Translations under genes and position numbers: made by a program | In this document: positions 41,197-49,608 of the stretch, in pieces | Layout of the letters: each line of letters starts with the position of its first letter | Numbering within the stretch: the stretch's first letter is position 1 | The notes under the pieces: generated by a model | What the model saw: only the letters and a program-made list of their open reading frames with translations | The model's database searches: none | What the model was told of the DNA's origin: nothing | Origin: a virus | Length of the DNA: 64,000 bases | IMG/VR virus record: IMGVR_UViG_3300037467_001050 | Coordinates: 1 to 64,000 of that record | Reading direction: 5' to 3' (one strand)

Positions 41197-41225
41197 GACC
41201 CCGGCCAACGGGGCGAGAGGAAACC

Positions 41226-41852: not shown

Positions 41853-43322
41853 ATGTCCAACAATGACGACGGCGGGAGCATCTCGCCGGCGACTGAGCTG
41901 CAACGCCGTCGGCGCGCACGCACGTCGCTCATCGGCTTTGCCGAATTCACCCTGGCCAAGTACAAGGCCGATCCCTTCCACTACAAGGTGGCGGAGAAGC
42001 TCGAAGCGGTCGAACGCGGCGAGATCAAGCGCCTGATGATCTTCGCGCCGCCGCGGCACGGCAAGTCCGAGCTGTCGACGCGCCGCTTCCCGGCTTGGTA
42101 CTTGGGTCGGAACCCGACCCACAACATCATCTCGGCCTCATACAACGCCGCGTTTGCCAAGGGCTTCGGCCGCAACGTCCGCGACATCGTCAACCAGGAG
42201 GAGTTCGGCGTCCTGTTCCCCGACGCCCGGGTGCGCGCCGATCTGCGCGCCGCGGATGAATGGGAGCTGGAGCAGGGCGGCCAATACTTCTCAGTGGGTG
42301 TCGGCTCAGGCACAACGGGCCGCGGTGCCAATCTATTTCTCATCGACGATCCAATCAAAGATAGAAAAGAGGCCGACTCCAAGACGTTCCGCGAGGATAT
42401 GTGGAACTGGTACCGAGACGTCGTCTACACCCGTCTCGAAGAAGACGCCCCGATCATCCTCACACTGACCCGGTGGCACTTCGACGACATCGCCGGCCGG
42501 CTTCTCGAGCTGCAGAAAACCGGCAAGGGTGAGCCGTGGGAGGTCCTACTCCTGCCGGCGCTCGCTACGCCGCGCAAGGACCCCGACACCGGAAAGCCCA
42601 TTCTCACGGAGGATGGCACCGTCCCGGGCGATCCGCTCAACCGCAAGCCCTTCGAGCCGCTGTCGCCGTCGCGCTTCTCCTACAAGGCCCTGAAGGACCG
42701 CGAGGAGGTTCTCGGCGAGCGCGGCTGGTCGGCCCTCTACCAGCAGAACCCCATCTCGGAAGAAGGTGGGATGTTCAAGTCCAGCTGGTTCGGGGTGGCC
42801 GACACGCTGCCCGCGCGCCGGCAGCGCGTGCGCGCCTGGGACTTCGGTGCCTCAATCGACGGCGACTGGACCGTCGGCGTCCTGATGAGCCGCGACAGCA
42901 ACGGCGTCTTCTACATCGAGGACGTGCGCCGGCTGCGCGGAACACCCCATGAGGTCGAGAAGCTGGTCTCGGAGACGGCCCGCGACGACGGCAAGGGCGT
43001 CCGGATCCGCATCCCCCAGGATCCGGGTCAGGCTGGTAAGGCTCAGAAGCTCAATTACATGAGGCTGTTGGCCGGCTACCGCGTGGAAGCCGAGCGGATC
43101 AGCGGAGACAAGAAAACCCGCGCCGAAGCCTTCGCGGCCCAAGCGCAGGGCGAGATGGTCAAGATCTACACCGGCGGCGTGGGCGGCTCCCACTGGCGGC
43201 AGGTGTTCTTGGACGAGCTCGCCACATTTCCCCTCGGAACCCACGACGACCAAGTCGACGCAGCCGCCGACGCTTTCAACGCCCTGCTCGGGCGGCGGAA
43301 GGCCGGCATCGCTGACTGGTGA
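41853..43322 (+). CDS. terL: Terminase large subunit
   Basis: APPRHGKS Walker A, LIDDP Walker B, RAWDFGA nuclease, HDDQVDA. Confidence 0.95.
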   Translation: MSNNDDGGSISPATELQRRRRARTSLIGFAEFTLAKYKADPFHYKVAEKLEAVERGEIKRLMIFAPPRHGKSELSTRRFPAWYLGRNPTHNIISASYNAAFAKGFGRNVRDIVNQEEFGVLFPDARVRADLRAADEWELEQGGQYFSVGVGSGTTGRGANLFLIDDPIKDRKEADSKTFREDMWNWYRDVVYTRLEEDAPIILTLTRWHFDDIAGRLLELQKTGKGEPWEVLLLPALATPRKDPDTGKPILTEDGTVPGDPLNRKPFEPLSPSRFSYKALKDREEVLGERGWSALYQQNPISEEGGMFKSSWFGVADTLPARRQRVRAWDFGASIDGDWTVGVLMSRDSNGVFYIEDVRRLRGTPHEVEKLVSETARDDGKGVRIRIPQDPGQAGKAQKLNYMRLLAGYRVEAERISGDKKTRAEAFAAQAQGEMVKIYTGGVGGSHWRQVFLDELATFPLGTHDDQVDAAADAFNALLGRRKAGIADW

Positions 43323-43353: not shown

Positions 43354-44892
43354 ATGGCTCAAACTGCAAATCCCGGCCTGTTCTCGGCTGCCTCCGCCTC
43401 GATGTCGGCACGGCGCGCGCTGATGCGCGCGGTCTACGGCGGCACAGAGACCCTGCGCGCCGCACGGGAAACCTACCTGCCGCGCTACGAGAACGAGAGC
43501 CCGACCCGCTACGAGACCCGGCTCGCCGCTGCCACGTCGCTGAACAAGCTCAGGGAGGCCGTCGACGCGGCTTCCGCGAAGCCGTTCAAGACGATGATCA
43601 AGTTGATCAACAACACCGACGCCGATCTCGATCAGTGGGTCCGTGACATCGATCTGACCGGCAACCATCTGCACATCTTCGCCCACCAGCACTTCAACGA
43701 CTCGCTGCTGATGGGGCAGGGGCACATCCTGGTGGATCACCCGACCACCTCGAACATGCCGAACCTCGGCGCTCAGCTCGCCTCAGGCGTTCGGCCGTTC
43801 ATGAAGTACATCCGCGACGACGACCTGCGCGCGGCCTACAGCGAGAACGTCGGCGGCGACATCCAGGTGACGCACGTCCGCATCTTCTCGACCCGCGTGG
43901 AGCGCGAGCCCGGCACCTTCAAGGAGAAGGTCTGGAACCAGATCTACGTGATCGAGAAGGAGGTCGGCGCCAACGCGGGCGTCGTGCAGGTCTGGGAGCA
44001 GGACGCGCAGGCCGGCGGCGACAGCTGGGATCTCATCTCCGAGAGCCCGCTCACCATGCCGGAAGTGCCGTTCGTGACGCTCTACGCGGGCGAGAAGGAG
44101 GGCGACTTCATCACCCGCCCGATCTTCCTCGACTTGGCGCACAAACAGGTGGAGCACTACCAGAGCTCGGCCGACCAGCGCTCGATCCTGTCCGCGGCGC
44201 GCTTCCCCATGCTCGCCGCCTCCGGCATTGAGTTCGACGAGGAGGAGATCTCGAAGTTCACGGTCGGCCCCTACAAGGCGCTGTTCTCCCCCGATCCGCA
44301 GGGCCGCTACTACTACGTCGAGCCGGCCGGACGGGCGATCAAGTCTGGCGCGGACGACCTCGCCGCCATGGAAATCCAGATGGACATGATGTCCCTCAAT
44401 CCCGTGGTCGGCACGCACCGGCAGTACGTGCCCGCCAACGAGCGCGACATCGCCGAGACGCGGGTGCATTCGGTGGTCCACGATCTGGCGCTGTCCGAGA
44501 AGGACGCGCTGGAGCGCGCGATCGGCTTCATGGGCACCTGGGTCAACCGGGACTTCTCGAACGTGGGCGTCGGCCTCAACTCCGACTTCACGAACACGAA
44601 GGACAAGATGATCCAGATGGGCGTCTTGTTGAACGCCTTCACCTCGAAGGCGATCTCGCTCGAGACCTTCCTGGAGCAGGCGCGCCGCCTCGATCTCGTG
44701 GACGACGAGTTCGACGTGAACGCCGAGGTCCAGCGGCTGGCCGCCGCCAACGCGGCGCTCGCGGACGAGGAGGATCCCAACGTCGACAACACCGGCCCGG
44801 TCGCCGGCTCGGCCTCCGACCCGGTACGTGCTTCGACCACGGCCCCGGTGGACTTCCCGAACGGCCGGACCCGCCCTAGATCTCAGATCTGA
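43354..44892 (+). CDS. Portal protein (DUF4055-like)
   Basis: YLPRYENES..RY..RL, follows TerL, 512 aa. Confidence 0.85.
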   Translation: MAQTANPGLFSAASASMSARRALMRAVYGGTETLRAARETYLPRYENESPTRYETRLAAATSLNKLREAVDAASAKPFKTMIKLINNTDADLDQWVRDIDLTGNHLHIFAHQHFNDSLLMGQGHILVDHPTTSNMPNLGAQLASGVRPFMKYIRDDDLRAAYSENVGGDIQVTHVRIFSTRVEREPGTFKEKVWNQIYVIEKEVGANAGVVQVWEQDAQAGGDSWDLISESPLTMPEVPFVTLYAGEKEGDFITRPIFLDLAHKQVEHYQSSADQRSILSAARFPMLAASGIEFDEEEISKFTVGPYKALFSPDPQGRYYYVEPAGRAIKSGADDLAAMEIQMDMMSLNPVVGTHRQYVPANERDIAETRVHSVVHDLALSEKDALERAIGFMGTWVNRDFSNVGVGLNSDFTNTKDKMIQMGVLLNAFTSKAISLETFLEQARRLDLVDDEFDVNAEVQRLAAANAALADEEDPNVDNTGPVAGSASDPVRASTTAPVDFPNGRTRPRSQI

Positions 44893-44916
44893 TTGGCAGG
44901 AATGCAAAGGTAGAAG

Positions 44917-45188: not shown

Positions 45189-45217
45189 TTGACATCCCGA
45201 AAGGAAAATGCTAATGG
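45189..45217 (+). promoter_or_regulatory. Sigma70-type promoter of the tRNA island
   Basis: TTGACA-17 nt-TAATGG (GCTAAT alphaproteobacterial-type -10), flanked by TGCA half-sites. Confidence 0.65.
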
Positions 45218-45489
45218 AATGGCATCCTGCAAAAGGTGTGAGTGAAGCATGTCCGTCGCGACGTCCCTTTCCCGCTGGGAGCTACCGACCTTCGGTGGCG
45301 TGGCGGCCGAGGATGTCCCGGCATGGATCGTCGAGGCGATGCTCCTCGGCGTCCTCACCGTGAACCGCCTCGGCGGGTTCACCCTCGACGATGCCCGCGG
45401 CACGAGCTGCATGGCAGGCGACATCGTGGTCCGACAGCCAGACGGCTCGATCACGTTCGAGAAGCAGGAGCAGGCCATCGCGGCCTGAT

Positions 45490-45581
45490 TGGAGCGTAGC
45501 TCAGTTGGTTAGAGCGCTGGCTTACCCCCGGTCTAACGGGGACGCCGGAGGCCACAGGTTCGAGCCCTGTCGCACCATCCA
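45490..45581 (+). ncRNA. tRNA-Asp-like RNA with 22-nt expanded anticodon loop
   Basis: Acceptor TGGAGCG/CGCACCA+T+CCA; D arm GCTC/GAGC; anticodon stem CTGGC/GCCGG; T arm ACAGG-TTCGAGC-CCTGT. Confidence 0.75.
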
Positions 45582-45663
45582 TCGGGAGCTGATCTGAAAG
45601 CCGCGATCAACAGGCTGGCGGCAGCTGGCCCTCCCGGCCAATTTCGCCCGAAATTGGGCACGG

Positions 45664-45740
45664 TAGGGTGTAGCTCAGCGGTCTAGAGCGCGGGTCTCCA
45701 AAACCCGGTGTCGCAGGTTCAAATCCTGCCTCCCTAGCCA
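45664..45740 (+). tRNA. trnW: tRNA-Trp(CCA)
   Basis: Full cloverleaf; anticodon arm CGGGT-CTCCAAA-ACCCG; encoded 3' CCA. Confidence 0.9.
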
Positions 45741-45779
45741 ATAGTTAGCCCGCAAGGGTGTTTTTGGAGAGCGAAAAGC

Positions 45780-46349
45780 TTGACCACGTACAGCATTTTC
45801 GATCACGGCTCTTGGGAGTCCTACATCAAGCCCGATAGCTTCGGGTCCATCCGACAGATCGGAACCGGGATCGACTGGTACGACTACCGGCAGAATGCCG
45901 CGAACTTCCACGGTGGCGTTCTTGTCACCCTGATGCAGGATTATGCGAACCCGGACGGCTTCCTGTCGGCGGCGCCAAACACCGATGTGTCGATGGTGTC
46001 CCCCTTCGGACGACTGATCGAGATCTTGGACTACGCTGGCTCCACACCTTCCGGTCCCAACAGCGATCTGGCCAACGCTCAGGTCGTCATCAGCGGCAAT
46101 ACCGCGACGTTCACGAAGCCTTACACCCTGACCTCTCGCACGGTTGTGAACCGCATGACCGACGCTGAGATGTACGCCGCCTACATGGCCGACCAGCTGC
46201 AGCCGCTGCGGTCTCGCCTCACAGGGACCGCCGTGCTGCTGACGAGCTTCACGGCACAGAGCGGGACCTCACAGTTCAGCCTGATCAAGGCGGCCTTCGC
46301 CAACCTGTTCGGTGCAGCTCGCGCCGAGACGCTGACAGCGGCCCCGTAG
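45780..46349 (+). CDS. Tail-fibre-assembly-like protein inserted in the tRNA island
   Basis: TTG start with GGAG RBS; DHGSW..Y.P N-terminus and helical C-terminus resemble alphaproteobacterial phage fibre chaperones. Confidence 0.45.
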   Translation: MTTYSIFDHGSWESYIKPDSFGSIRQIGTGIDWYDYRQNAANFHGGVLVTLMQDYANPDGFLSAAPNTDVSMVSPFGRLIEILDYAGSTPSGPNSDLANAQVVISGNTATFTKPYTLTSRTVVNRMTDAEMYAAYMADQLQPLRSRLTGTAVLLTSFTAQSGTSQFSLIKAAFANLFGAARAETLTAAP

Positions 46350-46447
46350 TCGCCAGACGAGAACGAGATCGGCCGGCCCGCGTGGCCGGCCCACAATCAT
46401 GCTCTACCCCAGAGCGCATTCCCTACGGGCACCAGCCCTGAAAAACG

Positions 46448-46473
46448 TTGACGCCCCAGGTTAGGCCTACCAC
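46448..46473 (+). promoter_or_regulatory. Second candidate sigma70 promoter
   Basis: TTGACG followed by CCTACCAC at -10-like spacing, upstream of the structured RNA block. Confidence 0.4.
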
Positions 46474-46645
46474 CCCCTTCGAGGGGGAACTCGAGCCCTC
46501 GTATGCGGCTCGAGTGGCGGTACTATGGTCGGATTAAGTAGGCGGGGAATTGCGAGGCAAGGAAGGTGGCGAGAGCCCCGGGTTCCGGTGCGAAAGCACG
46601 ACTGGACCGGCCAGACCGACGGGTCGCAAATGGGTGCCAATTCGA
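46473..46645 (+). ncRNA. Candidate structured ncRNA
   Basis: 9-bp stem ACTCGAGCC/GGCTCGAGT; GNRA hairpins GGC-GAGA-GCC and GTGC-GAAA-GCAC closed by TTGCGA/TCGCAA. Confidence 0.45.
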
Positions 46646-46648
46646 GAT

Positions 46649-46745
46649 CGACGACGTGGTGGCTGAGAGGCTGAAGGCACCACAGAAATGGGGCACGGCC
46701 TGCGGGTCGTCGGGGGTTCAAATCCCTCCCACGTCGTCGTTTCCA
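46649..46745 (+). ncRNA. tRNA-Ser-like RNA lacking an anticodon
   Basis: Ser-type D loop, 6-bp variable arm, T arm, G73; anticodon arm 14 nt (CCACA-GAAA-TGGGG); terminal stem extends to 11 bp. Confidence 0.7.
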
Positions 46746-46747
46746 TG

Positions 46748-46824
46748 CCCGGTGTAGCTCAGTCTGGTAGAGCATGTGGTTCATGCCCACGGAGCCGCTG
46801 GTTCAAATCCAGCCACCGGCACCA
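46748..46824 (+). tRNA. tRNA(CAT), Met/fMet/Ile2 class
   Basis: Cloverleaf; TGTGG-TTCATGC-CCACG; C1:C72 mismatch; A73 and CCA. Confidence 0.85.
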
Positions 46825-46941
46825 ACTTTCGAGGCGTGGACCCCTCGGGACCTCTCCGGTCCTAAGGCCTCGATCCCACCACGGTCGTGCTCGAACCGTG
46901 GTCCCTGCGCATGCGGGATACGATGAAGGGAAGGGGTGTCC

Positions 46942-47051
46942 GGGAGGGCATGAGGGCGGAGAGCCCCATCGGGCGCGTCGAGCTGAGCGTGCTCAGCTTC
47001 ACCGGCCCGATGCCTTTTGGCTTGGCGGTGAAAATCCAGCCCCTCCCACCA
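46942..47051 (+). ncRNA. 110-nt tRNA-shaped RNA with long central helix
   Basis: GGGAGGG/CCCTCCC+A+CCA; GGGC/GCCC hairpin; CATCGGGC/GCCCGATG and AGCTGAG/CTCAGCT stems; TGAAAAT T-loop-like. Confidence 0.6.
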
Positions 47052-47056
47052 GTTTC

Positions 47057-47140
47057 GAGTGAGATGCCCGGGTGGACGGGCGGGAGGCTGTAACCCTCCT
47101 GGCTATGCCGTGGTGGGTTCGAGCCCTGCCTCACTCACCA
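47057..47140 (+). tRNA. trnY: tRNA-Tyr(GTA)
   Basis: GAGTGAG/CTCACTC+A+CCA; GGAGG-CTGTAAC-CCTCC; long variable arm. Confidence 0.9.
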
Positions 47141-47165
47141 AAATTCAAACCTATCCGAGGGCTTC

Positions 47166-47387
47166 ATGGCCACCATCAGCACCACCGTCCATAAGCTCTT
47201 CGTCTCCGACATCACCTCGATCGTCGTGACCGACATCGTCGAGCAGGAGGACGGCTCGTTCGTTCGCGCCGTGCGCTTCTATGGCGACGATGACGCCGGC
47301 AACAAGGACCAGCTCATCGTCGAGGTGAAGGTCACTGCCGCCACCAAGGCGGGCGTTCAGATCCCAGTTCCAGCCTCGGGTTTCTGA
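47166..47387 (+). CDS. Small hypothetical protein
   Basis: GAGG RBS; 73 aa. Confidence 0.65.
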   Translation: MATISTTVHKLFVSDITSIVVTDIVEQEDGSFVRAVRFYGDDDAGNKDQLIVEVKVTAATKAGVQIPVPASGF

Positions 47388-47578
47388 GGCTCATTCAATC
47401 CCCATCGCGCTCCCGGCTCATCCCCGGTTGAGCGCGATCGCGACGGCCCCAGCCTGCAGCATCCCCGGCACAAGACGGGCAGGGATACCAAAGAGCGCGC
47501 CCCCGCACCTCGCGCCGCCGTCCATCGATCGCGAACCGGCTCCAAGACCGCGTCGCGTCGGCCCATAGGCCGCCACTG

Positions 47579-47606
47579 AGCCCCGGCTTCGCGCCGGGGC
47601 TTTTTT
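47579..47606 (+). terminator. Intrinsic terminator
   Basis: AGCCCCGGC-TTCGC-GCCGGGGCT followed by T tract. Confidence 0.85.
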
Positions 47607-47626: not shown

Positions 47627-48559
47627 ATGCCTGATCGTATTTCCGGGATGGAAATGGCACTTCACGCAATTGTCACCGACATCAATACTGTTCCCGAAGC
47701 ACTCCGCACCGAATACACCGAGAAGGACGGGAAGTTCTTCCTCAATGTAGAGCCGGTCGACGGGTTCAAGCTCGAGAACGTGGATGGGCTCGTCAACGCC
47801 CTGAGCGCCGAGCGCACCCTCAAGGACCGAGCCGAAGCTGCTCTCAAGCAGTTCAAGGACATCGATCCGAAGACCGCGCGCTCCGCCATCGAGGCGATCA
47901 CCGCCTACGGTGACCTCACCCCGCAGCAGGTCCAGGCCCTCCAAGAGGAGGTCGCCAATCTGCGCGCCATCGACCCGACCAAGGAAGCCGGCAAGCTCGC
48001 CGAGGCCCAGGTCAGCGCTGCGGTCGCCGCCGCCAAGGCTGAAGCCGAGCGCGTGTTCGGCACCGAGAAGACCACGCTCGCAGAGCAGCTCAACGGCCTC
48101 ACGGCGCTCAACGAGGGCCTGAAGGGTCAGCTCAAGGATCTGCTCGTCGGCAATCAGGTGAAGGCGGAAATCGCCCGCCTGAAGGTCGTGCCCGGCCTCG
48201 AGCCGGCCGCCGAGATGCTCGCCTCCCAGTCGATCCGCACGGTCGAGAAGGACAACGCCTTCCAGGTCGTGGTCATCGACAAGGACGGCAACCCGCGCAT
48301 GAAGCTCGGCGAGAACAACTCGCTCGTGCCGTTCACGGTCACGGACCTGATGGACGAGCTCAAGAAGACCACCCCCGGCCTCTTCCAGGCGGAAGACAAG
48401 GGCGGTGTTGGCATCCAGCCCGGGCGTCACGCTCCGGGCACCGGGGGCATCTCGAACCCCTGGTCGAAGGAGGCCTGGAACCAGACGGAGCAAGCCAAGC
48501 TCCGGCTCTCGAACCCCACCCTAGCCGCTCAGCTCAAGGCCCAGGCCGGCGTCTCCTGA
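47627..48559 (+). CDS. Capsid scaffolding protein (start may be 47654)
   Basis: Coiled-coil; NPWSKEAWNQTEQAKL C-terminus; precedes MCP. Confidence 0.8.
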   Translation: MPDRISGMEMALHAIVTDINTVPEALRTEYTEKDGKFFLNVEPVDGFKLENVDGLVNALSAERTLKDRAEAALKQFKDIDPKTARSAIEAITAYGDLTPQQVQALQEEVANLRAIDPTKEAGKLAEAQVSAAVAAAKAEAERVFGTEKTTLAEQLNGLTALNEGLKGQLKDLLVGNQVKAEIARLKVVPGLEPAAEMLASQSIRTVEKDNAFQVVVIDKDGNPRMKLGENNSLVPFTVTDLMDELKKTTPGLFQAEDKGGVGIQPGRHAPGTGGISNPWSKEAWNQTEQAKLRLSNPTLAAQLKAQAGVS

Positions 48560-48621: not shown

Positions 48622-49608
48622 ATGGCTATTGAGATCACCCAGCTCAAGGACATGATCGTCCCGGAGGAGTGGAACTCCTACATCGAGCTGACCACGACCC
48701 AGAAGAGCGAACTGTTCACCTCGGGCATCGTCCAGGATCTGTCGGCGGAAGTCGGCAATCAGCTGGAAGGCCCGCTGGTCCACATGCCCTACTTCGACGA
48801 CCTCGACAGTGACGACGATCACGAAGAGCAGCAGCTCGACGACGAGGACGACATCGTGGTGGACGGCATCACCACGGGCATGGACGTCGCGGTCAAGACC
48901 GCGCGCGCCAAGTCCTTCGGTTCGACCGACCTCGCCGCCGACCTCTCGGGCGCCGACCCGATCGCCGCGATCCAGAACAAGTTCGCTGGCTGGTGGGCCC
49001 GTCGGTACCAGACCGCTCTGCTCTCCGTGCTCGAGGGCGCGATGGGTTCGGTCGGTATGGAGTCCAACGTGCTCGACATCTCCGGCCTGACCGGCGATGC
49101 CGCGAAGTTCGCGCCTGTCCCCTTCGTCGAGGCCGCGTTCCTCCTGGGTGACGCCGCCGGTGGCCTGACCGCCCTGGCCGTCCACAGCCAGACGCTGAAG
49201 TCGATGGTCCTGGCCGACATGATCACGGTCGTGAAGGACTCGACCACGAACCTCGACATCCCGACGTACATGGGCAAGCGCATCATCGTCGACGACTCCA
49301 TGCCGGTCACCGGCACGGGCGTGGACCGCGTCTACACCAGCTACCTGTTCGGGCCGGGCGCCATCGGCTACGCCACCAAGCCGCTGAAGGTGCCGGTCGA
49401 GGTGGGCCGCAACGCCCTCAAGACCATGGGTCAGGACTACGTCGTCAACAGGAAGCAGTGGGTGCTCCACCCGCGCGGCATCGCCTGGAAGGGCAATGCG
49501 GTGAAGAAGTCCGGTCCGGTCAACGCCGAGCTCAAGAACCCGGCCAACTGGAACCGCGTGTACGACCACAAGCTGATCCGGCTCGTGGCGTTCAAGCACA
49601 AGAACTAA
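48622..49608 (+). CDS. Major capsid protein
   Basis: TQLKDMIVPE, SELFTSGIV, MPYFDDL, LHPRG..W, NW.RVYD.KLIRLVAFKH. Confidence 0.9.
   Translation: MAIEITQLKDMIVPEEWNSYIELTTTQKSELFTSGIVQDLSAEVGNQLEGPLVHMPYFDDLDSDDDHEEQQLDDEDDIVVDGITTGMDVAVKTARAKSFGSTDLAADLSGADPIAAIQNKFAGWWARRYQTALLSVLEGAMGSVGMESNVLDISGLTGDAAKFAPVPFVEAAFLLGDAAGGLTALAVHSQTLKSMVLADMITVVKDSTTNLDIPTYMGKRIIVDDSMPVTGTGVDRVYTSYLFGPGAIGYATKPLKVPVEVGRNALKTMGQDYVVNRKQWVLHPRGIAWKGNAVKKSGPVNAELKNPANWNRVYDHKLIRLVAFKHKN

What the first reader, a model, noticed from the sequence alone, without database searches (positions are those of the whole stretch)
45490..45581. tRNA-Asp-like body whose GUC anticodon is lifted onto an extra GC hairpin
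Seen: the D, anticodon-stem, variable and T regions resemble alphaproteobacterial tRNA-Asp (from memory). The 7-nt loop is replaced by 22 nt, TTAC-CCCCG-GTCTAA-CGGGG-AC, with GTC retained in the new 6-nt loop. The discriminator is U rather than the Asp identity G73, and CCA is encoded. Restoring TT-GTC-AC would need two excisions, so this is not a simple intron. Inference: a purpose-built elongated mimic.
Basis: partly seen in the sequence, partly recalled or inferred. Interest (0 to 1): 0.75.

Follow-up and report, generated by a model that had tools for sequence, protein, structure and literature searches.

The report
Phage aspartate-tRNA look-alike that cannot decode
A 123-kb soil phage carries a gene copied from an aspartate tRNA whose codon-reading loop has been replaced by a stalk with an extra GC hairpin, so it cannot read codons; it is either a kept tRNA-shaped decoy (one of three in the same gene cluster) or a recently disabled tRNA gene, and only this one copy is known.

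Summary
Window 45490-45581 (+) is a tRNA-shaped gene: Rfam tRNA scores 52 bits (cut-off 29), with 20 nt where the model has 5.

- **Body.** It matches cellular tRNA-Asp(GTC) at 60 of 70 positions.
- **Loop.** The 7-nt anticodon loop is replaced by 22 nt, UUAC-CCCCG-GUCUAA-CGGGG-AC.
- **3' end.** The discriminator is U and CCA is encoded.
- **Assembly.** A second assembler's contig (43x, probably the same sample) carries the identical sequence.
- **ARAGORN.** Its tRNA-Val(UAC) fold is about 9 kcal/mol worse than cloverleaf plus inner hairpin.

No single excision restores an Asp loop. There is no bulge-helix-bulge motif and no splicing endonuclease, so an intron is unlikely, although the phage encodes RtcB and a Thg1-like enzyme.

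I found no homologue carrying the insertion. Related BDU-MI-1-like phages hold ordinary tRNAs (Asn, Lys, Gln) in the same slot.

My best reading (about 0.45) is a non-decoding tRNA mimic kept for an off-ribosome role. Two neighbouring tRNA-like genes are also altered only in the anticodon arm. The main rival (about 0.35) is a young pseudogene.

The scan has noted non-decoding phage tRNA mimics on other DNA; those notes are unchecked by me. Interest is moderate.

The parts
45490..45581 (+). Whole tRNA-Asp-derived gene (92 nt), including the encoded CCA
   Evidence: Rfam RF00005 at 52 bits; ARAGORN hit; best cellular matches are tRNA-Asp(GTC)
45490..45496 (+). Acceptor stem, 5' strand UGGAGCG. 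It pairs with 45571-45577 (CGCACCA); position 4 (A) is mismatched with A69.
   Evidence: Sequence; cmscan marks the non-standard pair; ARAGORN drawing
45499..45514 (+). D arm GCUC-AGUUGGUUA-GAGC with G18 G19
45517..45521 (+). Anticodon stem, 5' strand CUGGC. It pairs with 45544-45548 (GCCGG).
45522..45543 (+). 22-nt element replacing the 7-nt anticodon loop: UUAC / inner hairpin / AC
   Evidence: cmscan shows a 20-nt insertion against 5 model positions; sequence
45526..45541 (+). Inner hairpin CCCCG-GUCUAA-CGGGG (5 G-C pairs; apical 6-nt loop at 45531-45536 containing GUC)
   Evidence: Present in the MFE and centroid folds. It adds about 12 kcal/mol to the cloverleaf. Shuffle test p about 0.002-0.01.
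45549..45570 (+). Variable loop AGGCC and T arm ACAGG-UUCGAGC-CCUGU
45571..45581 (+). Acceptor stem 3' strand CGCACCA, discriminator U (45578), encoded CCA (45579-45581)
   Evidence: Sequence
45249..45488 (+). 79-aa ORF whose stop codon ends 1 nt before the gene. It is a homologue of the 95-aa ORF that lies upstream of tRNA-Asn in phage BDU-MI-1.
45189..45217 (+). Promoter-like TTGACA-17 nt-TAATGG upstream of the 79-aa ORF; a possible start of the island's transcript
   Evidence: Read directly. The consensus scan did not call it because the -10 hexamer lacks the final T.
45664..47140 (+). Rest of the RNA island: tRNA-Trp (45664-45740), 189-aa ORF (45780-46349), Ser-like RNA (46649-46745), CAU tRNA (46748-46824), Tyr-like RNA with a closed, extended anticodon arm (46942-47051), tRNA-Tyr (47057-47140)
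47578..47602 (+). Intrinsic terminator-like hairpin with a U run; the first one downstream of the island

Best explanation
The gene descends from a proteobacterial-type tRNA-Asp(GUC). It was taken into the tRNA slot that BDU-MI-1-like phages keep between the portal and scaffold genes.

The anticodon trinucleotide region was replaced by 18 nt. The anticodon arm is now a 5-bp stem, a 4x2 internal loop, a 5-bp G-C helix and a 6-nt loop. The acceptor, D and T arms, the core tertiary nucleotides and the CCA end stay tRNA-like.

Shown:
- the anatomy
- the Asp ancestry
- the stability of the inner hairpin
- the absence of any route by one excision to an Asp loop

Inferred:
- The RNA is transcribed with the island, then trimmed by RNase P and 3' exonucleases to a stable L-shaped RNA whose anticodon arm is roughly one helical half-turn too long for the ribosome.
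- AspRS is unlikely to charge it, because it has U73 and a displaced GUC.
- It is therefore a non-decoding tRNA mimic, kept together with the Ser-like and Tyr-like RNAs of the same island.
- Its role would be to occupy a protein that recognises the tRNA body (elbow, acceptor end), most plausibly a host tRNA-targeting defence or toxin enzyme, or a phage tRNA-handling enzyme such as RtcB or the Thg1-like protein.
For: - **Canonical body.** Rfam scores 52 bits despite a 15-nt surplus, against 64 and 60 bits for the normal Trp and CAU tRNAs next to it. 60 of 70 non-loop positions equal the best cellular tRNA-Asp. Of the five stem pairs that differ from it, four still pair: 1:72 G-C to U-A, 51:63 G-C to A-U, 49:65 G.U to A-U, 28:42 C-G to U.G (read).
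- **Stable, non-random hairpin.** The cloverleaf with hairpin folds at -32.3 kcal/mol, against -20.2 without it. Shuffle p is about 0.002-0.01.
- **Not a dispersed repeat.** The hairpin is not repeated in the phage or in 401 sampled Pseudomonadota genomes.
- **Same design next door.** The Tyr-like RNA at 46942-47051 has an outer stem, an internal loop and an 8-bp inner hairpin in place of its anticodon loop. The Ser-like RNA has a 6-nt loop. That makes three anticodon-arm lesions with intact bodies in 1.65 kb.
- **Phage tRNA enzymes.** The phage encodes RtcB and a Thg1-like enzyme.
- **Published background.** Phage tRNAs are proposed to counter host anticodon nucleases (PMC10264068).
Against: - It is a singleton. 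No homologue with the insertion turned up in IMG/VR patterns, GTDB genomes, isolate phages or the portal-linked relatives. There is therefore no conservation or covariation.
- The A4.A69 mismatch and U73 could be decay.
- Detection is biased: tRNA finders tolerate loop insertions, so lesions elsewhere would go unseen.
- Other IMG/VR tRNA genes with loop insertions include clearly broken ones, for example L027 with a disrupted acceptor stem.
- Known anticodon nucleases recognise the anticodon loop, which this RNA lacks (established knowledge). A decoy would therefore need a body-recognising target that has not been identified.
- There are no expression data.
Confidence: 0.45

Rival explanations
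1. Young pseudogene. A phage tRNA-Asp gene was knocked out by a palindromic insertion or replacement in the anticodon loop, for instance by template switching at the stem-loop or as a scar of a site-specific event. It has not yet been deleted and has no function.
For: - It is a singleton with no conserved relatives.
- The acceptor stem has an A4.A69 mismatch and a non-Asp discriminator.
- Relatives carry ordinary tRNAs, or nothing, in this slot, so its content turns over fast.
- Similar loop-expanded genes elsewhere in IMG/VR include obviously degenerate ones.
Against: - The body is otherwise intact, scores as a good tRNA, and keeps all core tertiary positions and CCA.
- A perfect 5-bp G-C hairpin is not a typical random lesion.
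- Three anticodon-arm-specific lesions in one island, two with the same design, need either repeated coincidence or a shared cause.
- Phage genomes usually lose useless DNA quickly (established knowledge).
Confidence: 0.35
2. Interrupted but functional tRNA. The extra nucleotides are removed from the transcript by a nuclease making 2',3'-cyclic phosphate and 5'-OH ends, and the phage RtcB reseals the halves. This yields a decoding tRNA with loop UUGGGAC, UUACGAC or UUACCAC.
For: - The phage encodes RtcB, the ligase class used in archaeal and animal tRNA splicing and in anticodon-loop repair.
- Removing 15 contiguous nt can leave 7-nt loops with U33 and A37 (enumeration from the sequence).
- U73 together with C35 C36 would fit glycine identity rules (established knowledge).
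Against: - None of the possible products is an Asp loop, although the body is Asp-like.
- Restoring UU-GUC-AC needs two excisions.
- The fold has a 4x2 internal loop, not a bulge-helix-bulge motif.
- The phage has no splicing endonuclease, and none was found in the bacterial control genomes.
- 15-18 nt is far too short for a group I intron, and Rfam finds none.
- A34 anticodons ACC and AGG are not used by bacteria (established knowledge).
Confidence: 0.06
3. It folds as ARAGORN draws it: a tRNA-Val(UAC) with anticodon stem G27-U43, loop CUUACCC and a 21-nt variable arm. It would then decode GUA/GUG.
For: - ARAGORN calls tRNA-Val(tac) with this fold.
- Class-I-bodied phage tRNAs with long variable arms exist, for example the tRNA-Ile(TAT)-like genes in L015, L017, L025 and L039.
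Against: - This fold scores -23.4 kcal/mol, against -32.3 for cloverleaf plus inner hairpin.
- It has two G.U pairs in the stem, no nucleotide 26, and C at position 37, where a purine is nearly universal.
- Both the MFE and centroid predictions keep the inner hairpin.
- The flanks AC-GCCGG-AGGCC align base for base with tRNA-Asp.
Confidence: 0.05

Closest known systems
Bacterial tRNA-Asp(GUC) (Rfam RF00005), as found in Pseudomonadota genomes (loci L054-L082)
   Same: The acceptor length, D arm, G26, anticodon stem, the AC end of the loop, the variable loop and the T arm align without gaps. 60 of 70 non-loop positions are identical to the best match.
   Different: - The 7-nt loop YUGUCAC is replaced by 22 nt.
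- The discriminator is U, not G.
- The first pair is U1-A72, not G1-C72.
- There is an A4.A69 mismatch.
Phage-encoded tRNAs with anticodon-loop changes, proposed to escape host anticodon nucleases (van den Berg et al. 2023, PMC10264068)
   Same: It is a phage tRNA-cluster gene whose difference from the host-type tRNA is concentrated in the anticodon loop. The phage also carries an RNA ligase.
   Different: Those tRNAs keep a 7-nt loop and still decode. This one has lost the loop geometry and cannot.
Intron-containing tRNAs (archaeal/eukaryal bulge-helix-bulge introns; bacterial group I introns in tRNA anticodon loops)
   Same: There is extra sequence inside the anticodon loop that pairs into a helix extending the anticodon arm, and an RtcB-type ligase is present in the genome.
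   Different: - No BHB motif.
- No endonuclease gene.
- Too short for a ribozyme.
- No single excision gives the cognate loop.
Stable tRNA-cluster RNAs of phage T4 (RNA C and RNA D, 'species 1 and 2'). Cited from my own knowledge; not re-read here.
   Same: Small RNAs encoded inside a phage tRNA cluster, tRNA-like at the ends, non-decoding, function unknown.
   Different: - No sequence relation was tested.
- The T4 RNAs are longer (about 120-140 nt).
- They are conserved among T-even phages, whereas this gene is a singleton.
tRNA-like modules with a long helix in place of the anticodon arm (tmRNA; bacterial Y RNA YrlA with Ro/Rsr, often beside rtcB)
   Same: The tRNA elbow and acceptor-like features are combined with an elongated, closed 'anticodon' helix.
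   Different: - ARAGORN finds no tmRNA.
- There is no G3.U70.
- The only YrlA match (25 bits against a cut-off of 69) lies elsewhere and spans two adjacent tRNA genes.
- The phage has no Ro/TROVE gene.

Membership tests
tRNA (Rfam RF00005), structural membership | Cloverleaf with a 7-bp acceptor stem, D arm with G18 G19, T arm with UUCRA, and a score above the gathering threshold | tested here: met
   52.0 bits against a cut-off of 29, model positions 1-71 all matched
tRNA (functional decoder) | 7-nt anticodon loop with U33, the anticodon at 34-36 and a purine at 37 | tested here: not met
   22-nt loop with an inner 5-bp hairpin
tRNA-Asp | Body most similar to tRNA-Asp among cellular tRNAs | tested here: met
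   The top ~30 whole-genome BLAST matches in 401 genomes are tRNA-Asp(gtc); 60 of 70 positions identical
tRNA-Asp | GUC at positions 34-36 and discriminator G73 (AspRS identity set, established knowledge) | tested here: not met
   GUC lies in the apical loop of the added hairpin; the discriminator is U
BHB-intron tRNA | Two 3-nt bulges on opposite strands, separated by a 4-bp helix | tested here: not met
   The predicted arm is a 5-bp stem, a 4x2 internal loop, a 5-bp helix and a 6-nt loop
BHB-intron tRNA | A splicing endonuclease is available | tested here: not met
   PF01974 is absent from the phage and rings only in the archaeal control genomes. The host genome was not available.
BHB-intron tRNA | Excision restores a loop cognate to the body | tested here: not met
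   The possible 15-nt excisions that keep U33 give UUGGGAC, UUAGGAC, UUACGAC, UUACCAC or UUACCCC; none gives an Asp loop (sequence)
Group I intron in tRNA | Ribozyme core of about 200 nt or more | tested here: not met
   Only 15-18 extra nt; no intron family found in Rfam at E<=1
Long-variable-arm tRNA-Val(UAC) (ARAGORN call) | The proposed fold is the stable one and has a canonical loop | tested here: not met
   -23.4 against -32.3 kcal/mol; C at position 37 and no nucleotide 26
tmRNA / YrlA-type tRNA mimics | Family model match and partner features (tag ORF, G3.U70; Ro protein) | tested here: not met
   No tmRNA; no Rfam match at the locus; no TROVE gene
Phage non-decoding tRNA-cluster RNAs (tRNA mimics) | Encoded inside a phage tRNA cluster, with a tRNA-like acceptor/T arm, a CCA end and no usable anticodon loop | tested here: met
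Phage non-decoding tRNA-cluster RNAs (tRNA mimics) | Conserved among related phages, with structure-preserving changes | tested here: not met
   No homologue with the insertion in any collection searched.
Phage non-decoding tRNA-cluster RNAs (tRNA mimics) | Accumulates as a stable processed RNA | not testable with these tools
   No RNA run holds the stretch

The most novel reading that the evidence does not exclude
The gene is one of three co-transcribed, anticodon-disabled tRNA mimics (Asp-, Ser- and Tyr-derived). Together they would form a phage RNA module working off the ribosome. The mimics would bind and block, or divert, a host enzyme that recognises tRNA bodies (a defence nuclease, or a CCA-end- or acceptor-modifying toxin). 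Alternatively, they would serve as dedicated substrates or guides for the phage's RtcB and Thg1-like enzymes.
Probability: 0.35. Interest if true: 0.75.

Novelty: new variant of a known kind. Interest (0 to 1): 0.45.

Why it matters
Why phages carry tRNA genes is still debated. The current idea is that they replace host tRNAs destroyed by defence nucleases.

A phage that keeps tRNA-shaped RNAs that cannot decode would point to a second use of the tRNA fold in this conflict: as a decoy or ligand rather than an adaptor. It would also give a simple handle for finding the host or phage protein that recognises the tRNA body, by pull-down with a 92-nt RNA.

If the gene is only a fresh pseudogene, it still shows how fast the tRNA slot of BDU-MI-1-like phages turns over. 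It also warns that ARAGORN's 'tRNA-Val' call here is wrong.

Tried and rejected
**Searches for a second copy**
1. Exact-pattern scans of IMG/VR gave only chance matches in coding DNA, or nothing:
   - D stem + anticodon stem with a free loop
   - anticodon stem + UUAC/AC flanks with a free hairpin
   - both acceptor strands with a free interior
2. The same kind of pattern in 185,579 GTDB genomes found only normal tRNA-His and tRNA-Asp genes.
3. BLAST against isolate phages matched only generic D-arm stretches.
4. Synteny route. Portal relatives (53-63% identity) from IMG/VR, GenBank (BDU-MI-1) and metagenomes carry tRNA-Asn, Lys/Asn/Gln, Trp elsewhere, or nothing. None carries an Asp-like gene.
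5. The 189-aa island ORF has three metagenomic homologues.

**Expression**
6. No RNA holder is listed for the stretch. Runs X2 and X3 hold only fragments of other organisms' tRNAs and of the ORF. One Rfam call failed on a size limit.

**Origin of the insert**
7. Mobile or REP-like repeat: rejected. There is one copy in the phage. In 401 Pseudomonadota genomes there is 1 three-mismatch hit against 10 in the reversed control.
8. The insert starts right after TTAC, which recalls an IS608-type target. I treat this as coincidence: there is no transposase and no element ends.

**Other readings**
9. Amber-suppressor reading of the apical loop (U-CUA-A): rejected. The arm is too long for the ribosome, the loop has 6 nt, and the phage's large genes are intact under the standard code.
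10. The phage has no AspRS-type, CCA-adding, splicing-endonuclease or Ro gene.

**Literature and data status**
11. Searches found no paper describing hairpin-extended anticodon arms in phage tRNA genes.
12. The unpublished genome G384 was among those searched; no claim here rests on it.

Full report
**Setting.** The window is the first 64 kb of an IMG/VR virus record of 122,894 bp with 64.6% G+C, rated complete by CheckV. Its gene order is:
- large terminase, 41853-43322
- portal, 43354-44892
- two small ORFs
- a 1.65-kb RNA island, 45490-47140
- a 73-aa ORF
- a terminator-like hairpin, 47578-47602
- scaffold, 47627-48559
- major capsid protein, 48622-49608

The nearest isolate is Bradyrhizobium phage BDU-MI-1, with 55% portal identity.

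**Check of the observation.** Rfam's tRNA model matches 45490-45578 end to end at 52.0 bits (cut-off 29). It places 20 nt where the model has 5 in the anticodon loop.

All other parts are canonical:
- a 7-bp acceptor stem, with one A4.A69 mismatch
- U8, A14, G15 with C48, and G18 G19
- a 4-bp D stem and G26
- a 5-bp anticodon stem, CUGGC/GCCGG
- the variable loop AGGCC
- the T arm ACAGG-UUCGAGC-CCUGU
- discriminator U and an encoded CCA

The loop is UUAC-CCCCG-GUCUAA-CGGGG-AC.

BLAST of the 92 nt against 401 whole Pseudomonadota genomes returned gapped full-length matches as its best hits. ARAGORN calls these tRNA-Asp(gtc) in about 30 loci. The best is identical at 60 of 70 non-loop positions.

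Against that Asp sequence, five stem pairs differ and four of them still pair:
- 1:72, G-C to U-A
- 51:63, G-C to A-U
- 49:65, G.U to A-U
- 28:42, C-G to U.G
- 4:69, G.U to A.A, which is broken

The parental loop is YUGUCAC. The present loop keeps the first U-U (or C-U) and the last A-C, and has 18 nt in place of GUC.

**Which fold.** ARAGORN reports tRNA-Val(tac). It shifts the anticodon stem by one base, reads CUUACCC as the loop, and turns the rest into a 21-nt variable arm. Energies:

| Fold | kcal/mol |
|---|---|
| ARAGORN tRNA-Val fold | -23.4 |
| Cloverleaf with inner hairpin | -32.3 |
| Cloverleaf without the hairpin | -20.2 |

The unconstrained MFE and centroid structures both contain the C37-G52 hairpin. 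The ARAGORN fold also lacks nucleotide 26 and has C at position 37. I therefore treat the Val call as an artefact of the program's model.

**Is the hairpin chance?** Only 0.2% of shuffles of the 22 nt, and 1% of random 22-mers of genome composition, fold as stably. The hairpin is real.

That GUC sits in the apical loop is much weaker evidence, with a chance probability of about 0.07. It fills loop positions 1-3 of a 6-nt loop preceded by G. The loop therefore does not have the U33-anticodon-R37 layout that enzymes reading an Asp anticodon loop expect. That expectation is established knowledge and was not tested here.

**Artefact?** Logan's independent assembly of run X1 has an 11,136-nt contig at depth 43 covering 45300-47300 with no difference. 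X1 is probably the sample the record came from. This excludes an error of one assembler but is not an independent observation.

**Intron?** The phage encodes RtcB (468 aa, about 111.2-112.6 kb, minus strand) and a Thg1-like enzyme (about 95.2-95.6 kb). A cut-and-reseal route therefore had to be considered. It fits poorly:
- Restoring UU-GUC-AC needs two excisions.
- A single 15-nt excision can give only UUGGGAC, UUAGGAC, UUACGAC, UUACCAC or UUACCCC, and none is cognate to the Asp body.
- The arm has a 4x2 internal loop rather than a bulge-helix-bulge.
- The phage has no splicing endonuclease, and that family rang only in the archaeal control genomes.
- The insert is an order of magnitude too short for a group I intron, and Rfam reports none.

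I give this route about 6%.

**Relatives.** I found no second copy. Pattern scans of IMG/VR gave chance hits in coding DNA or nothing. A pattern scan of the GTDB genome set gave only normal tRNA-His and tRNA-Asp genes. BLAST against isolate phages matched only the generic D arm.

Phages with 53-63% identical portals, and what they carry:

| Locus | tRNA genes found |
|---|---|
| BDU-MI-1 (L046), L087, L089 | tRNA-Asn(GUU), between portal and scaffold |
| L088 | tRNA-Lys, tRNA-Asn, tRNA-Gln, downstream of the portal |
| L085, L086 | tRNA-Trp upstream of the portal, not in this slot |
| L010, L083, L084 | none |

In BDU-MI-1 the 95-aa ORF homologous to our 79-aa ORF precedes the tRNA-Asn. The slot is therefore a variable tRNA site of this phage group, and the Asp-derived gene is specific to this phage as far as the data reach.

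The hairpin is not a dispersed repeat:
- The phage has one copy.
- In 401 bacterial genomes there was one three-mismatch hit, against ten for the reversed control.
- A similar hairpin, CCCCGG-CC-AACGGGG, lies in an intergenic spacer at 41199. I cannot say whether that is more than coincidence.

**Context that favours a kept RNA.** The island holds three usable tRNAs and two further tRNA-like genes altered in the anticodon arm.

Usable tRNAs:
- Trp(CCA)
- a CAU tRNA
- Tyr(GUA)

Altered tRNA-like genes:
- At 46649-46745, a Ser-type body with a 6-nt loop and an over-long acceptor helix.
- At 46942-47051, a Tyr-type body ending in ACCA. Its anticodon arm is a 7-bp stem, an internal loop and an 8-bp inner hairpin closed by a tetraloop.

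The Tyr-type RNA has the same design as the gene studied here. Earlier notes of this scan had flagged the two other genes and the RtcB/Thg1 pair. I re-derived the folds and the two enzymes myself but did not repeat their comparative work.

Three lesions confined to the anticodon arm, with the bodies intact, in 1.65 kb of a phage genome is more than I would expect from neutral decay. However, tRNA finders and human readers detect exactly this kind of lesion and miss others, so the argument is weakened by ascertainment bias.

**Context that favours decay.** A scan of IMG/VR for one common D arm and T loop separated by 34-50 nt returned 35 loci. Apart from giant-virus tRNAs with ordinary introns, and class-I bodies with long variable arms, it found about ten phage tRNA-array genes with 8-36 extra nt in the anticodon loop, often forming a hairpin. 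These follow no common rule. Some, such as L027, also have broken acceptor stems. Loop-expanded tRNA genes are thus a recurrent form of damaged or altered phage tRNA gene, not a unique design.

**What it most likely does.** The island has a promoter-like TTGACA-17-TAATGG at 45189-45217 (read; the consensus scan did not call it). Its first terminator lies at 47578-47602. The gene starts 1 nt after the stop codon of the 79-aa ORF.

I infer the following steps:
- The gene is co-transcribed with the island and released by RNase P and 3' trimming.
- The product would be an L-shaped RNA with a normal elbow and CCA end.
- Its anticodon arm would be about 12 stacked layers long instead of 5 bp plus a loop, so it cannot reach a codon.
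- With U73 and a displaced GUC it should not be a substrate of AspRS.

My best reading (0.45) is a non-decoding tRNA mimic. It would act, with its two neighbours, as a ligand or decoy for a protein that recognises the tRNA body or 3' end. Candidates are a host tRNA-directed defence or toxin enzyme, or the phage's own RtcB or Thg1-like enzyme. The published frame is the proposal that phage tRNAs exist to counter host tRNA nucleases (PMC10264068). Those tRNAs, however, keep a working loop.

The main rival (0.35) is a young pseudogene. Splicing or repair to a decoder (0.06) and the ARAGORN Val fold (0.05) are minor.

**Comparison and novelty.** Structurally the gene is a member of the tRNA family, and by descent a tRNA-Asp. 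It fails the defining functional features of both: the 7-nt loop, GUC at 34-36 and G73. It fails every tested feature of intron-bearing tRNAs, tmRNA and Y-RNA-type mimics.

It resembles in kind the stable non-decoding RNAs of phage tRNA clusters. T4 RNA C and D are the example I know of; I did not re-read the literature on them. It also resembles the tRNA mimics that this scan has noted in other phages, which are unchecked notes. It lacks the conservation that defines a family.

I rate it a new variant of a known kind, of moderate interest. It is worth an RNA-level experiment together with its two neighbours, but not yet evidence of a designed mimic.

Noticed in passing
window 46942-47051 (+): A Tyr-type tRNA-like RNA ending in ACCA. 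Its anticodon arm is a 7-bp stem, an internal loop and an 8-bp inner hairpin with a tetraloop. It lies directly upstream of a normal tRNA-Tyr(GUA) at 47057-47140. Its fold z-score is -2.8.
   Followed up: partly
window 46649-46745 (+): A Ser-type (long variable arm) tRNA-like RNA with a 6-nt anticodon loop and an acceptor helix that can extend to 10-11 bp. ARAGORN reports a two-letter anticodon.
   Followed up: partly
window 45664-45740 and 46748-46824 (+): The usable island tRNAs also carry acceptor-stem mismatches: U6.U67 in tRNA-Trp and C1.C72 in the CAU tRNA. The phage encodes a Thg1-like 3'-5' polymerase (G000 about 95.2-95.6 kb).
   Followed up: no
window 48434-48531 (-): ARAGORN's 98-nt 'tRNA-Ala(ggc)' lies antisense inside the scaffold gene and has several mismatches. 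It is almost certainly a false positive.
   Followed up: no
window 41199-41213 (+): An intergenic hairpin, CCCCGG-CC-AACGGGG, lies between a stop codon and the next ribosome-binding site. It closely resembles the hairpin inserted in the tRNA-like gene (CCCCGG-TCT-AACGGGG).
   Followed up: no
window 45780-46349 (+): A 189-aa ORF inside the RNA island has no Pfam or PHROG match. It has three metagenomic homologues (56-77% identity) with a conserved C-terminal half. Their genomic contexts could not be fetched.
   Followed up: partly
window 44893-44907 and 45222-45232: Copies of the TTGCAGGAATGCAA-like word flank the promoter-like TTGACA-17-TAATGG (45189-45217) upstream of the island. This suggests the island's transcription is under the phage repressor noted by other readers.
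   Followed up: no
IMG/VR loci L021, L023, L027, L029, L030, L031, L034, L036, L037, L042: Phage tRNA-array genes with 8-36 extra nt in the anticodon loop. In several (L042 Gly, L036 Ile, L034 Pro) the insert lies 5' of an intact anticodon and pairs with it. No common rule was evident.
   Followed up: partly
IMG/VR loci L015, L017, L025, L039: tRNA-Ile(TAT)-like genes with a class I D arm but a roughly 20-nt stem-loop variable arm. They recur in contigs of 37-420 kb.
   Followed up: no
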